Below are positions 27,257 through 52,364 of a stretch of 64,000 bases of DNA, piece after piece. The notes under the pieces are model-generated. The model made no database searches. It had not been told where the DNA came from and saw only the letters and a list, made by a program, of their open reading frames with translations. Location of the stretch: NCBI GenBank assembly GCA_017464565.1, contig JAFTZH010000035.1:213838-277837 (forward strand). The letters are read 5' to 3'. The position numbers were made by a program, and so were the translations under genes. The stretch comes from Clostridia bacterium. GTDB lineage: Bacteria; Bacillota; Clostridia; Oscillospirales; CAG-272. How positions within the stretch are numbered: position 1 is the stretch's first letter; every line of letters begins with the position of its first letter.

Positions 27257-27275
27257 ATATTTATAGATATTTATA

Positions 27276-27436
27276 GGGGAGAAACTTTTTAAAAAAAGTT
27301 TCTCCCCTAACCCCTCTTCAAAAATTTTTAAAAGTTGGGTTTATTTTTGATTTTTACCTTGCTTCCTACGAAAAGCTTAATATAGATTCACGCTATACTC
27401 GGCAGGGGAGTGGCTTTTTGCAAAAAGCCACTCCCC
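27276..27436 (-). repeat. intergenic repeat element copy A, bounded by the two palindromes GGGGAGAAAC..GTTTCTCCCC and GGGGAGTGGCTTTTTGCAAAAAGCCACTCCCC
   Basis: The palindromes lie at 27276-27307 and 27405-27436. The interior aligns, as reverse complement, with 31125-31221 and 52236-52332. Confidence 0.8.
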
Positions 27437-27457
27437 ATATAAATCCACTATACTAAC

Positions 27458-30596: not shown

Positions 30597-31001
30597 TTAA
30601 TTGATTTTCTTTTCTTCCTCGGCGCAGGCACGGCAAATACCAAAGAATTCCAGCCTGCAATCCTCTACGGCAAAACCCTCGCAGCCTATCGCCTGCTTCG
30701 CAAACAGCTCGTCGTCAAAGTCAACCTCGACGTCAGCCACAGCCCCGCATCTCTTACATATTATATGATAGTGCTTTTTCAGCGTGATATCATATCTGTC
30801 GGATGAGTCGCTGAGCTTCAGCCTTAGTATCTTTCCTTCGTCTGCCGCTTCCGAAAGCAATCGGTAGACCGTCGCTTTGCTAATCCCCGGATAGCTTTCT
30901 CTGACCTTTTCGTAAACCATTCCTGCCGACGGATGATTGTGCATTTGACTCAATGTGTCAAATACGATTTTCTTTTGTAATGTGTTTCTTTTGCTTGTCA
31001 T
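30597..31001 (-). CDS. Fur-family regulator, PerR-like by context
   Basis: 134 aa with a winged helix plus HIICKRCG and GICRAC Cys pairs. It lies directly upstream of rubrerythrin. Confidence 0.75.
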   Translation of the reverse strand: MTSKRNTLQKKIVFDTLSQMHNHPSAGMVYEKVRESYPGISKATVYRLLSEAADEGKILRLKLSDSSDRYDITLKKHYHIICKRCGAVADVEVDFDDELFAKQAIGCEGFAVEDCRLEFFGICRACAEEEKKIN

Positions 31002-31039
31002 TTTAATAACTGTTCCTTATTAAGAATGATTACAAATAA

Positions 31040-31068
31040 ATTATAACATTACTTTTTCGTTTTGTCAA
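31040..31068 (-). promoter_or_regulatory. perfect TTGACA-17-TATAAT promoter for the perR-like/rubrerythrin operon
   Basis: The -35 is the complement of 31063-31068 and the -10 is the complement of 31040-31045. Confidence 0.65.
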
Positions 31069-31093
31069 TAGGTTTTTGAAAAAATATTTTTAT

Positions 31094-31320
31094 GGGGAGA
31101 GTTTTTTTGAAAAAGCCCCTCTCCTACCGAGTATGGTGAAATTTTTTAATATTCTTCACATAGGAATCAATACAAAAATTTTAAACCATAACCAACGTTT
31201 AAGATTTTTGAAGAGGGGTACGGGGAGAAACTTTTTGCAAAAAGTTTATCCCCGATAAAACACACCAATCTTTTGAATAGAGTGTTTTGGGGAGTGCCTT
31301 TTTGCAAAAAGGCACTCCCC
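31094..31320 (+). repeat. intergenic repeat element copy B with three GGGGAG..CTCCCC hairpins
   Basis: Hairpins at 31094-31124 (imperfect), 31222-31253 and 31289-31320 (perfect 32-bp palindrome). It shares the CCGAGTATGGTGAAA and ATTTTTGAAGAGGGG blocks with copies A and C. Confidence 0.8.
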
Positions 31321-41160: not shown

Positions 41161-41411
41161 GTTACTTTTCTTTTGCAAAAGAAAAGTAACCAAAAGAAAA
41201 CACTGACAAATTAAATAAAAACCAATTTCTTATAGCGTTATTCTAAATTTTATTTGCTAAAACTCTTTCTTCTTTTAAAAAAGATAGAGTAACCAAAAGA
41301 AAACACTGACAAATTAAATACTATCTTTATTATCCCCAAACTTTTAAAGTTTCTTGGACGGGTGGGGGTATGGGGGAGGGAGACCTTCTTGCAAGAAGGT
41401 CTCCCTCCCCC
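41161..41411 (+). repeat. intergenic repeat element copy D inside the his operon (two perfect palindromes plus a 32-bp direct repeat)
   Basis: A 30-bp palindrome lies at 41161-41190 (GTTACTTTTCTTTTGCAAAAGAAAAGTAAC). A 32-bp direct repeat lies at 41186-41217 and 41289-41320. A 40-bp palindrome lies at 41372-41411 (GGGGGAGGGAGACCTTCTTG/CAAGAAGGTCTCCCTCCCCC). Confidence 0.85.
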
Positions 41412-50827: not shown

Positions 50828-50850
50828 TTTTATAATTTTTGCAAAAACTA

Positions 50851-50879
50851 TTGACAAACCGTTTCGTTTGTGTTATCAT
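50851..50879 (+). promoter_or_regulatory. rplJL promoter TTGACA-17-TGTTATCAT
   Basis: TTGACA at 50851-50856 and TATCAT at 50874-50879, preceded by TGT. TTTTTGCAAAAA lies directly upstream at 50836-50847. Confidence 0.6.
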
Positions 50880-52122: not shown

Positions 52123-52364
52123 GGGGGAGGAGCTTCTTTCAAAAAGCTTTAAACGGTTTTGGTTTAATTTTAGGTTTTCGTTTTTCTTTCTACAGAGGGA
52201 TTAATTCCGGTTTCACCATACCCGCCCCTACCCTGCCGAGTATGGTGAAAATTTTAAATAAGCTCTCGGTAGGAAGCAAGACAAAAAAATAAAGCCATAC
52301 CCAAGTTTTAAAATTTTTGAAGAGGGGGTTAAGGGGGAGGGACTTTTGCAAAAGTCCCTCCCCC
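52123..52364 (+). repeat. intergenic repeat element copy C
   Basis: It has a degenerate left hairpin at 52123-52149 and an 11-bp inverted repeat TTTCACCATAC/GTATGGTGAAA (52211-52221 and 52240-52250). The shared interior block follows, then the perfect 32-bp palindrome GGGGGAGGGACTTTTG/CAAAAGTCCCTCCCCC at 52333-52364. Confidence 0.8.

What the first reader, a model, noticed from the sequence alone, without database searches (positions are those of the whole stretch)
27257..27457. New-looking family of intergenic repeat elements bounded by perfect GGGGAG-N4-(C)TTTTTGCAAAAA(G)-N4-CTCCCC palindromes (copy A; 4 copies in 64 kb)
Copy A lies between convergent clpC and the acyl-CoA ligase gene. It consists of the palindrome GGGGAGAAAC..GTTTCTCCCC (27276-27307), a 97-bp interior, and the perfect 32-bp palindrome GGGGAGTGGCTTTTTGCAAAAAGCCACTCCCC (27405-27436). 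Its reverse complement aligns block by block with 31094-31253 and 52236-52364. Shared blocks are CTCCCC-TGCCGAGTATGG/AGCGTGAA, AAGCTYTYCGGTAGGAAGCAAG and CCCAASTTTTAAAAATTTTTGAAGAGGGGTTA-GGGGAG. A partial copy lies at 41330-41411. Across copies the 4-nt inner stem differs but remains self-complementary (TGGC/GCCA, AAAC/GTTT, TGCC/GGCA, GGAC/GTCC). Palindromy is therefore maintained while sequence drifts. No conserved ORF exists across copies, and no transposase is nearby. All copies sit in intergenic DNA at gene ends. They could be REP/MITE-like mobile hairpin elements, RNA-stabilising or processing structures, or binding sites for a dimeric protein recognising TTTTTGCAAAAA. That 12-mer also occurs alone at 50836-50847, next to the rplJ -35.
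Basis: seen in the sequence. Interest (0 to 1): 0.6.

Follow-up and report, generated by a model that had tools for sequence, protein, structure and literature searches.

The report
Triplex-type hairpin repeats behind genes
This small bacterial genome carries about 200 copies of a hairpin-forming DNA repeat built like the known 'triplex-motif' (BoxC) repeats of E. coli, but here every copy sits in one fixed orientation just behind a gene's stop codon, in the slot where relatives have ordinary transcription terminators, which points to a role at the ends of messenger RNAs.

Summary
The window's copies belong to a family of at least 202 hairpins at 121 intergenic sites in a 1.67-Mb genome. The elements are mosaics of hairpins joined by lineage-specific linker modules, with no ORF. 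I found no Y1/RAYT, TnpB, reverse transcriptase or DUF559 gene.

The conserved core also occurs in scattered genomes of other phyla. It is a perfect 30-32-nt hairpin plus a one-sided block that mirrors the adjacent arm. This is the design of the known intrastrand-triplex repeats (BoxC/PIT/TMECO), but in a different block order. Both the stem and the mirror block covary.

What is new is the placement:
- 124 hairpins lie 5-60 nt after a stop codon and 6 lie near a gene start.
- 68 of 69 orientable copies carry the C-rich third block on the sense strand.
- Canonical terminators are almost absent where the element is present (3/121 against 120/672).
- Behind groEL, congeners have either a canonical terminator or a family member with species-specific stems.
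- No Rho domain was found.

The elements are gained DNA: the his operon junction is an empty site in 12 congeners.

Most likely these are non-autonomous repeats that occupy the terminator slot and act as mRNA 3'-end structures.

The parts
27276..27307 (.). Hairpin H (AAAC type, 32 nt), 19 nt after the clpC stop codon
27311..27325 (+). Third (mirror) block CCCCTCTTCAAAAAT on the sense strand of clpC. It mirrors the 3' arm of the hairpin at 27276-27307.
27311..27402 (-). Linker modules L3, L2 and L1. The unit reads L1>L2>L3>H on the minus strand.
27405..27436 (.). Hairpin H (TGGC type, perfect 32-mer), 21 nt after the stop of the convergent acyl-CoA ligase gene. No third block.
31094..31124 (.). 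Degenerate hairpin at the L1 end of copy B
31127..31218 (+). L1-L2-L3 of copy B, including the G-strand third block at 31203-31218
31222..31253 (.). Hairpin H (AAAC type, one mismatch)
31289..31320 (.). Hairpin H (TGCC type), 21 nt after the groEL stop
41334..41410 (+). L3-like block plus a 38-nt hairpin variant (41373-41410), 23 nt after the stop of the upstream his gene. Part of about 270 nt inserted into the his operon.
52133..52225 (-). Inverted partner unit (L3<, L2<, L1<) of copy C. Its outer hairpin is degenerate.
52236..52327 (+). L1-L2-L3 of copy C, with the third block at 52313-52327
52333..52363 (.). Hairpin H (GGAC type, 30/31 nt), 23 nt after the stop of the convergent carboxyltransferase gene

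Best explanation
What it is (shown). The locus is one of at least 121 sites that carry a mosaic, non-coding repeat.

The conserved core has two parts. The first is a perfect hairpin, GGGGAG-N4-T4-5-NN-A4-5-N4'-CTCCCC. The second lies on one side only. It is a third block, CCCCTCYYCAAAAAC on the C-rich strand and GTTTTTGRRGAGGGG on the G-rich strand. This block is the mirror image (reversed, not complemented) of the adjacent hairpin arm.

This is the build of an intrastrand-triplex motif of the BoxC/PIT/TMECO kind. Here the block order is third block, purine, pyrimidine. That makes it class I on the G strand and class III on the C strand. An A/T helix takes the place of the first loop.

Lineage-specific linkers (L1-L3, T, S, H0, Hx) join hairpins into single units, inverted pairs of about 190 bp, and longer ladders, much as in BIMEs.

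The DNA was gained. It has no coding capacity, and this genome has no recognisable mobilising enzyme.

How it works (inferred). The elements persist only in the terminator slot, 5-35 nt behind stop codons. The hairpin lies next to the gene and the C-rich block is on the sense strand. There they serve as the 3'-end structure of the upstream mRNA. That could mean a barrier to 3' exonucleases, a non-canonical termination signal, or both. It may fold as a hairpin with the 3' block laid into its groove.

New subfamilies arise, amplify and replace older copies, or canonical terminators, in the same slots. The route is unknown. Candidates are gene conversion or recombination between copies, replication slippage at non-B DNA, or a trans-acting enzyme that was not assembled.

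Confidence by part: about 0.85 for the identity, about 0.45 for the mRNA 3'-end role, and low for the mode of spread.
For: Copy number and mosaic build:
- The genome holds 161 exact hairpins and 202 with up to 3 substitutions, in 121 clusters.
- The modules and their arrangements were mapped.

Mirror block:
- It is conserved from Clostridia-like MAGs to Desulfomonilaceae MAGs.
- It follows the arm when the arm differs, for example in G003, G004, G008, L042 and L081.
- Over 186 distinct arms the mirror score is 0.488 against 0.411 for mismatched pairs, p = 7.5e-13.

Stem:
- 93% of pairs are Watson-Crick against 50% in shuffles, with 20 complementary N4 types.
- Pairing is kept about six times better than the neighbouring L sequence. 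33 of 44 hairpins are perfect, and 2.9% of pairs are mismatched against 19% expected.

Position and polarity:
- 124 hairpins lie 5-60 nt after a stop codon, with a mode of 15-30 nt. Only 6 lie near a gene start.
- 68 of 69 orientable copies have the third block distal to the gene and on the sense strand.
- In tandem intergenic regions the hairpin abuts the upstream gene although hundreds of nt are free.
- The loci from other phyla show the same polarity.

Terminator slot:
- Canonical hairpin-plus-T-run terminators start a median of 13 nt after the stop.
- They are found at 120 of 672 gene ends without the element, but at 3 of 121 with it.
- Behind groEL, 13 congeners have a canonical terminator. 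Six genomes (G000 and five congeners) have a hairpin-plus-mirror-block element with species-specific stems.
- No Rho RNA-binding domain was found in a genome that is 97% complete.

Gain of DNA:
- The junction between the two his genes is 44-89 nt in 12 congeners and about 297 nt here.

Known-family design:
- It is described in PMC4666352. That paper also states that only pyrimidine-type triplexes (classes III and IV) occur in RNA. Class III is the type found on the sense strand here.
Against: - No U-tract follows the hairpin. A C-rich segment would strengthen the RNA:DNA hybrid, so canonical intrinsic termination is unlikely.
- The E. coli relatives (PIT/TMECO) showed no terminator or promoter activity and no positional bias. 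No triplex was detectable in vivo (PMC4666352).
- Four consecutive C+.G-C triplets need protonated cytosines and are weak at neutral pH.
- Stem mismatches show no G.U-over-A.C bias on the sense strand: AC 27, GT 25.
- The linker part has no conserved RNA fold.
- About half of the gene-proximal hairpins have no third block.
- A few copies follow an intact canonical terminator, for example G000 C3:9521. The element is therefore not always the only 3' signal.
- Gene calls are crude longest-ORF calls.
Confidence: 0.5

Rival explanations
1. The elements are purely selfish or structural DNA repeats with no RNA function. They would be triplex- and cruciform-prone sequences that spread through replication slippage or recombination at non-B DNA. 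Polarity and position would then reflect only what selection tolerates. Insertions in promoters or coding DNA are lost. The orientation that puts the G-rich, neutral-pH triplex- or G4-forming strand on the displaced non-template strand is also lost, because it would stabilise R-loops.
For: - TMECO repeats are linked with local genomic instability and have no demonstrated expression role (PMC4666352).
- The family's distribution is patchy: 0 of 400 sampled genomes of the phylum, and very different copy numbers among carriers.
- Stem mismatches show no G.U bias on the sense strand.
- The linker part has no conserved fold.
Against: - Hairpin starts fall in a narrow window of 15-30 nt after the stop, even in long tandem intergenic regions.
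- The element and canonical terminators are near-complete alternatives, both genome-wide and at the orthologous groEL slot across congeners.
- Hairpin pairing is conserved far better than the neighbouring sequence.
- No Rho was found, so these 121 gene ends would have no termination or 3'-end signal at all.
Confidence: 0.25
2. This is a classical REP/RAYT or MITE system. The hairpins would be the ends recognised by a transposase (Y1/RAYT, IS200/IS605-like or a DDE enzyme) that targets terminator hairpins. The enzyme's gene would have been lost or left out of the assembly bin. The repeat at the ends of about 28 contigs could be the missing larger partner.
For: - Discrete subfamilies, inverted-pair forms with long inverted repeats, and internal-deletion-like derivatives.
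- A longer repeat of 12-17 copies at about 28 contig ends.
- An empty site in congeners.
- Occurrence in distant phyla and in 5 viral contigs.
Against: - No Y1_Tnp, TnpB, reverse transcriptase or DUF559 in this genome, which is 97% complete.
- Y1 and DUF559 genes in other carrier genomes are not flanked by the hairpins. Two carriers lack Y1 altogether.
- No ORF lies between inverted units.
- No target-site duplication or split-terminator remnant is visible.
- The visible part of the long repeat is a ladder of hairpins with no ORF.
- No REP-type GTAG or CGTC head is present.
Confidence: 0.15
3. The hairpins are ordinary (bidirectional) intrinsic terminators that merely look repetitive.
For: They lie in the terminator slot and exclude canonical terminators.
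Against: - No T-run follows on either strand.
- About 100-nt linker modules are repeated along with the hairpins.
- The same sequences recur at more than 100 sites. An insertion lies inside the his operon, where no terminator is expected.
Confidence: 0.05
4. The palindromes are operators for a dimeric DNA-binding protein that recognises TTTTTGCAAAAA, or they are independent small-RNA genes.
For: The T-run/A-run centre is conserved across genomes, even where the stems differ.
Against: - The central dinucleotide is variable.
- The stems covary instead of being conserved.
- The mirror block cannot be explained by two-fold protein symmetry.
- The sites lie at 3' ends, not at promoters: 124 against 6.
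- No promoter accompanies the unit, no conserved fold was found, and no Rfam family matches.
Confidence: 0.04

Closest known systems
BoxC / PIT elements / TMECO G/C-rich intrastrand triplex motif repeats (Hoyne, Maher et al. 2000; Holder et al. 2015, PMC4666352)
   Same: - Three consecutive blocks on one strand: pyrimidine, complementary purine, and a third block that mirrors the purine block.
- G/C-rich GGGNGAGGG-like blocks.
- A 3-nt second loop that is often TTA, with a TCC/GGA variant here against CCG in TMECO type B.
- Intergenic and multi-copy.
- Often found as inverted pairs.
- Very patchy among close relatives.
- No associated transposase.
   Different: - The block order is reversed: class I/III here, class II/IV in TMECO.
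- The TMECO pattern itself has 0 matches in this genome.
- The first loop is replaced by a conserved T4-5-NN-A4-5 helix that the third block also mirrors.
- The core is embedded in linker modules of about 100 nt.
- The density is about 120 per Mb, against about 5 per Mb in E. coli K-12.
- The carriers are Clostridia-like and Desulfobacterota MAGs rather than Proteobacteria and cyanobacteria.
- Polarity and distance to stop codons are strict, whereas TMECO shows no trend.
REP / BIME elements of Enterobacteria and Pseudomonas, with their RAYT transposases
   Same: - Short high-copy extragenic palindromes.
- Mosaic clusters with defined linker motifs.
- Enrichment at gene 3' ends and between convergent genes.
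- REPs stabilise upstream mRNA and can affect translation when close to the stop codon (own knowledge).
   Different: - No RAYT or Y1 gene.
- No GTAG or CGTC head.
- The palindromes are perfect rather than imperfect.
- A mirror third block is present.
- The core sequence is shared between phyla.
Bacterial MITEs (Correia/NEMIS, RUP, ERIC and similar)
   Same: - Non-coding.
- 150-200-bp forms with long inverted repeats.
- Insertion polymorphism relative to relatives.
- Co-transcribed with neighbouring genes (own knowledge, for Correia elements).
   Different: - No target-site duplication seen.
- No related autonomous IS found.
- The ends are self-palindromic hairpins.
- The position relative to stop codons is fixed.
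Intrinsic (Rho-independent) terminators
   Same: - A GC-rich stem-loop starting 10-30 nt after the stop codon.
- It occupies the same slot and excludes canonical terminators.
   Different: - No U-tract. Instead there is a C-rich block, then an A-run, then a short UUU.
- It is a repeated sequence that comes with linker modules.
ENE-type RNA triple helices that protect RNA 3' ends (PAN, MALAT1; own knowledge)
   Same: Functional analogy only. A 3'-proximal strand laid into the major groove of a stem could shield the RNA 3' end from exonucleases.
   Different: ENEs clamp an A-rich tail with U.A-U triples. The element here would need C+.G-C and U.A-U triples. Nothing of this kind has been shown in bacteria, and nothing was tested here.

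Membership tests
Intrastrand triplex motif repeats (BoxC/PIT/TM) | Pyrimidine block, complementary purine block and a third block that mirrors the purine (or pyrimidine) block, all on one strand, with stems of at least 6-8 nt and at most one mismatch | tested here: met
   GAAGAGGGG-TTA-GGGGAGAAA(C)...(G)TTTCTCCCC and its variants. The mirror relation exceeds mismatched pairings over 186 distinct arms.
Intrastrand triplex motif repeats (BoxC/PIT/TM) | The TMECO pattern itself: CCCTCNCCC-N3-6-GGGNGAGGG-N3-GGGNGAGGG (class II order, loops of 1-6 nt) | tested here: not met
   0 matches in the genome, against 70 for the class I pattern of this family. The first 'loop' is a 10-12-nt A/T palindrome.
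Intrastrand triplex motif repeats (BoxC/PIT/TM) | Intergenic, multi-copy, with large differences between close relatives and no link to transposons | tested here: met
Intrastrand triplex motif repeats (BoxC/PIT/TM) | The single strand actually folds into a triplex (CD or NMR) | not testable with these tools
   Needs oligonucleotide biophysics. ViennaRNA does not model base triples.
REP/BIME with RAYT | High-copy extragenic palindromes of 20-40 bp arranged in mosaics with linker motifs | tested here: met
REP/BIME with RAYT | A RAYT (Y1 transposase) gene in the genome, flanked by the repeats | tested here: not met
   No PF01797 hit in G000, G087 or G088. Y1 genes in G085, G086 and G089 are not flanked by the hairpins.
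REP/BIME with RAYT | A conserved GTAG or CGTC tetranucleotide head on the palindrome | tested here: not met
   The arms start with GGGGAG or species-specific purine runs.
MITE | Terminal inverted repeats plus a target-site duplication | tested here: inconclusive
   Inverted-pair forms have long inverted arms. No duplication could be recognised in the A/T-rich flanks. No same-species empty site was available.
MITE | A related autonomous IS with the same ends | tested here: not met
   There is no ORF between inverted units and no transposase family was found. The MAG is 97% complete but has 54 contigs.
Intrinsic terminator | A GC-rich hairpin directly followed by a U-tract | tested here: not met
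   The hairpin is present, but it is followed by (N1-8)CCCCTCYYCAAAAAC. Only 3 of 121 element-bearing gene ends have any canonical terminator.
Any Rfam family | A match at the curated gathering score | tested here: not met

The most novel reading that the evidence does not exclude
The hairpin and its 3' C/U-rich, A-run block fold on the sense transcript into a class III (pyrimidine-type) RNA triple helix. This fold would act as a non-canonical terminator or 3'-end cap that needs no U-tract: a mobile, ENE-like mRNA-end module. It would replace intrinsic terminators in Rho-less Clostridia-like bacteria and also occur in other phyla. The fixed polarity would then exist because only this strand can form a triplex as RNA.
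Probability: 0.12. Interest if true: 0.9.

Novelty: new variant of a known kind. Interest (0 to 1): 0.6.

Why it matters
BoxC/PIT/TMECO triplex motifs have been known for decades without an assigned function. In E. coli they show no positional or strand bias, and no terminator activity was found.

This relative of that design behaves differently:
- It has a strict transcription-related polarity.
- It keeps a fixed distance from stop codons.
- It alternates with canonical terminators at orthologous gene ends, in a genome where no Rho was found.
- Covariation supports both the stem and the mirror block.

That turns the old question of what these motifs do into a directly testable one, through orientation-swap and third-block mutants behind a reporter gene.

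It also matters for annotation. About 120 gene ends in this genome, and many in rumen and soil MAGs, would be scored as having no terminator. In addition, the repeats are a main cause of assembly breaks in this MAG.

Tried and rejected
- RAYT/Y1 transposase: absent here, and not adjacent to the hairpins elsewhere.
- DUF559 nuclease link, suggested by earlier scan notes for other BoxC-like repeats: absent in G000, and not adjacent to this family in five carrier genomes.
- TnpB and reverse transcriptase: absent.
- Rho-dependent terminator (rut-like C-rich tail): no Rho domain in G000 or in three other carriers, but present in the two delta MAGs, so there is no consistent link.
- Rfam: nothing above threshold, and only generic hairpin noise at a permissive E-value.
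- Structured RNA in the L modules: the consensus fold energy is about 0, and the strand difference in MFE is only 1.9 kcal/mol, p = 0.02.
- G.U against A.C asymmetry in the hairpins: none.
- Covariation between the third block and N4 within the GGGGAG-clamped set alone: weak in G000, where it can be explained by subfamilies, and absent across phyla. It became significant only with diverse arms.
- Composite transposon with inverted units around genes: only ordinary gene blocks lie between them.
- Same-species empty sites: exact-protein look-ups for GroEL and RplL found nothing on record. Two metagenome scans found nothing.
- Phage and plasmid BLAST: no match.
- Literature search by the 12-mer sequence: irrelevant hits only.
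Full report
**1. Observation**

GGGGAGAAACTTTTTAAAAAAAGTTTCTCCCC lies at 27276-27307. The perfect palindrome GGGGAGTGGCTTTTTGCAAAAAGCCACTCCCC lies at 27405-27436. A 97-nt interior separates them.

Hairpins of this build occur 4-5 times in the window, against 0-0.06 expected from shuffles. The copies at 31094-31320, 41334-41410 and 52133-52363 share the named blocks.

**2. Scale**

The window lies in a genome of 1.67 Mb, 47% G+C and 54 contigs, estimated 97% complete.

- The hairpin occurs 161 times exactly. With up to three substitutions it occurs 202 times, in 121 clusters: 53 single, 55 double and 13 triple.
- The interior blocks are also present in about 100 copies.
- Many contig ends stop inside the repeats.
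- Within this genome the stems fall into a few subfamilies. The AAAC type has a 30-nt hairpin. The TGCC, GAGC and GGAC types have 32-nt hairpins.

**3. Anatomy**

I oriented the copies by their one-sided flank. This gives the unit L1 (CCGAGTATGGT), L2 (a near-palindrome around GTAG, then AAGACAAAAA), L3 (ACCCAACGTTTAAAGTTTTTGAAGAGGGG) and then the hairpin H. A short T or S linker and a second hairpin may follow.

Common arrangements:
- the single unit, often closed by another hairpin at the L1 end (copy A is of this type);
- a symmetric inverted pair of about 190 bp, H-L3<-[L2]-L3>-H;
- H32-S-H30-T.

Beyond L1 many copies continue into a small hairpin H0 (GGGAGGAGCAAGCCCCTCCCC) and a hairpin Hx. 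In about 28 contig ends they continue further into a ladder of other hairpins around an A/T-rich centre, present in 12-17 copies. This explains why the assembly breaks there.

No ORF or transposase lies between inverted units. The L part has no conserved RNA fold. L copies are 77-92% identical to each other, with a median of 84%.

**4. The conserved core is a triplex-type motif**

I scanned one genome per species for the hairpin. They come from MAGs labelled Desulfomonilaceae or 'delta proteobacterium', rumen and gut Clostridia, Eubacteriales and Oscillospiraceae. A few are from bins labelled Planctomycetaceae, Chloroflexia and Actinomycetes.

The pattern did not ask for it, yet nearly all these loci carry the same one-sided flank. 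In the delta-type loci it is (A)GGAGTTTTTGGGGAGGGGTCC next to the hairpin. In the Clostridia-type loci it is AAAGTTTTTTGAAGAGGGGTTC.

On the C-rich strand the flank reads CCCCTCYYCAAAAAC. This is the reverse, not the complement, of the 3' arm CAAAA(A)GNNNCTCCCC. Put another way, the purine arm GGGGAGRRR and the flank GRRGAGGGG form a mirror repeat, separated by about 3 nt (TTA, TCC).

A mirror repeat next to its Watson-Crick partner defines an intrastrand triplex motif. I noticed the mirror relation and thought of a triplex before any look-up. Notes from this scan on other genomes then named the known family, BoxC/PIT/TMECO. I read the primary paper (Holder et al. 2015, PMC4666352).

TMECO has the form CCCTCNCCC-N3-6-GGGNGAGGG-N3(TTA or CCG)-GGGNGAGGG. 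Its block order is pyrimidine, purine, third block, which is class II. The family here runs third block, TTA, purine, [T4-5NNA4-5], pyrimidine. That is class I on the G strand and class III on the C strand. The third block also mirrors the T-run.

The TMECO pattern itself has no match in this genome. The class I pattern has 70 matches.

**5. Covariation**

Stem:
- Across genomes, stem positions 7-10 are Watson-Crick in 93% of cells, against 50% (maximum 57%) in shuffles. There are 20 different fully complementary N4 types.
- In G000 the figures are 96% against 56%.
- I also anchored on L copies, so that the sample does not depend on detecting the hairpin. In this set 33 of 44 adjacent hairpins are perfect, and 2.9% of pairs are mismatched. 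If the arms had drifted like L, which is 90% identical to its consensus, 19% would be expected.

Mirror block:
- Within the GGGGAG-clamped set, the third block does not follow N4 beyond subfamily effects.
- Congeners carry the same design with quite different arms. G004 has TGAGGGGTAC and CGAGAAC. G003 has GGGGGAGAGAGGGA and GGGGGAGAGGAGAG. G008 has GGGGGAAGAAAAC. In these the flank changes with the arm.
- Over 186 distinct arms, the local mirror-alignment score is 0.488 for true pairs and 0.411 for mismatched pairs, p = 7.5e-13.

**6. Position and polarity**

These counts rest on crude longest-ORF gene calls.

- Hairpin-bearing intergenic regions are convergent in 40 of 189 cases, tandem in 37 of 924 and divergent in 8 of 201.
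- Of the hairpins within 60 nt of a gene boundary, 124 follow a stop codon and 6 precede a start.
- The gap between stop codon and hairpin is 15-30 nt in 86 cases and never under 5 nt.
- 68 of 69 orientable copies have the hairpin next to the gene and the third block and L modules pointing away. The C-rich block is thus on the gene's sense strand.
- In tandem intergenic regions the hairpin abuts the upstream gene, with one or two exceptions, although 100-400 nt are free downstream.
- All four window copies obey this rule. So do about 36 of about 40 informative loci from other phyla.
- Where the T module is present, it starts 0-6 nt after the stop or supplies the TAG.

**7. The terminator slot**

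- Canonical hairpin-plus-T-run terminators in this genome start a median of 13 nt after the stop, with an interquartile range of 8-23 nt.
- They occur at 120 of 672 gene ends without the element, but at only 3 of 121 with it.
- No Rho RNA-binding domain was found.

The most telling comparison is the flank downstream of the groEL stop in congeners:
- 13 congeners have a textbook terminator.
- Six genomes (G000, G015, G019, G008, G007, G006) have a hairpin-plus-mirror-block element. Their stems are species-specific: GGGGAGTGCC, GAGGGAAC, GGGGGAAGAAAAC, GGGGAGC and GGGGGAAAC.
- Three have a similar hairpin without a clear flank.

The two kinds of structure are therefore alternatives in one slot. 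More distant MAGs show the same occupancy:
- An Oscillospiraceae MAG, 76% identical in groEL, has the hairpin 18 nt after the groEL stop.
- An 'Eubacteriales' MAG is syntenic over 5.5 kb at 68.5% identity. At the same gene end as G000 C3:9521 it has a canonical terminator followed by the GGAC-type hairpin.

**8. Gain and distribution**

- In 12 congeners the junction between the two his genes that flank the insert in the window measures 44-89 nt. In G000 it holds about 297 nt of repeats, between an intact stop codon and an intact ribosome-binding site.
- The GGGGAG-clamped subfamily is abundant only in G000. G016 has 9 copies, three other congeners have 1 each, and 32 have none. None was found in 24 other families of the order. 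None was found in 400 sampled genomes of the phylum.
- The wider design, with other stems, occurs in several congeners.
- Other carriers have 8-55 copies. G000 has about 100 per Mb, which is extreme.
- BLAST against phage and plasmid records found nothing. Five IMG/VR contigs carry single delta-type copies.
- Each genome's copies share its own stem types. This implies amplification, or concerted replacement of copies, within lineages.

**9. What could move it**

- Y1/RAYT, TnpB, reverse transcriptase and DUF559 are all absent from G000.
- Where Y1 or DUF559 genes exist in other carriers, they are not next to the hairpins.
- I could not recognise target-site duplications or remnants of split terminators.

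The mode of spread remains open. Three routes are compatible with the data: conversion between copies, slippage or recombination at non-B DNA as proposed for TMECO, and an enzyme encoded on unassembled DNA.

**10. Interpretation**

Shown:
- a high-copy mosaic repeat with a core of the triplex-motif design;
- selection, or a templated mechanism, that maintains both the stem and the mirror block;
- DNA gained relative to relatives;
- strict placement in the terminator slot, with transcription-related polarity;
- alternation with canonical terminators.

Inferred: the elements act on the sense transcript as its 3'-end structure.

The paper cited above states that purine-type triplexes do not form in RNA, whereas pyrimidine-type ones do. 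The observed polarity always puts the pyrimidine-type (class III) arrangement on the mRNA. That fits an RNA-level role, and possibly a hairpin-plus-third-strand fold followed by the conserved AAAAAC-UUU.

Evidence against this reading:
- There is no U-tract.
- Runs of C+.G-C triplets are weak at neutral pH.
- The E. coli relatives have no terminator activity.
- Stem mismatches show no G.U bias.
- Half of the gene-proximal hairpins lack a third block.
- Some copies follow an intact terminator.

The main rival is that the repeats are selfish non-B DNA and that their polarity is only the tolerated orientation.

**11. Verdict**

The family is a new variant of a known kind, the BoxC/PIT/TMECO-type intrastrand-triplex repeats organised like BIMEs. 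What is new is its polarity and its position in the terminator slot. I score interest at 0.6.

Noticed in passing
window 41161-41216 and 41291-41319: A second, A/T-rich repeat family: GTTACTTTTCTTTTGCAAAAGAAAAGTAAC followed by CAAAAGAAAACACTGACAAATTAAAT. It has the same TTTTGCAAAA centre. It can also be read as pyrimidine block, purine block and mirror purine block (CTTTTCTTTT / AAAAGAAAAG / AAAAGAAAA), which is the class II order. Unlike the GGGGAG family it is present in many copies, at 92-100% identity, in most congeners (G003, G015, G042, G049, G050, G062 and others).
   Followed up: partly
G000 contig ends, e.g. C49:1-440, C20:1-320, C42:26700-27112, C7:1-250 (loci L121-L127): About 28 contig ends stop in a ladder of distinct hairpins, present in 12-17 copies. 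Examples are GCCCTCGGAGC..GCTCCGAGGGC, CGCGGCGCG..CGCGCCGCG, CCAAGGG..CCCTTGG and GCAGAAAGGTC..GACCTTTCTGC. They surround an A/T-rich centre and are flanked by L-H units. The two arm types overlap, which suggests a non-coding composite of roughly 1 kb. No Rfam match was found.
   Followed up: partly
whole genome G000: No Rho RNA-binding domain was found in a genome that is 97% complete. By strict criteria, only about 18% of gene ends with a downstream gap of at least 40 nt have a canonical hairpin-plus-T-run terminator.
   Followed up: partly
window 50836-50876: The lone TTTTTGCAAAAA lies 9 nt after the stop of the preceding ORF and 5 nt before a TTGACA-17-TATCAT promoter in front of the L10 leader. 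It is an A/T-rich near-palindrome (ATAATTTTTGCAAAAACTAT), not a family member.
   Followed up: yes
L003:6040-6150 against G000 C3:9450-9570; L027:6272-6303 against window 31289-31320: Distant MAGs, 68-76% identical in the flanking genes, carry the same hairpin type at the orthologous gene end. The 56-nt core is 89-93% identical to G000 copies, which is higher than the identity of the neighbouring coding DNA.
   Followed up: partly
loci L158, L161, L162, L165 (G004) and the groEL flanks of G005, G015 and G019: In some congeners the hairpin is preceded by short tandem repeats of GGACGCG(A/G)G-like heptamers or octamers. This is a lineage-specific module that is not seen in G000.
   Followed up: no
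L153-L157 (IMG/VR contigs): Five viral or proviral contigs (56-61% G+C) each carry one delta-type copy with its flank.
   Followed up: no
window 31030-31075, minus strand: A perfect TTGACA-17-TATAAT promoter for the gene at 30597-31001 lies directly after the repeat cluster that follows groEL.
   Followed up: no
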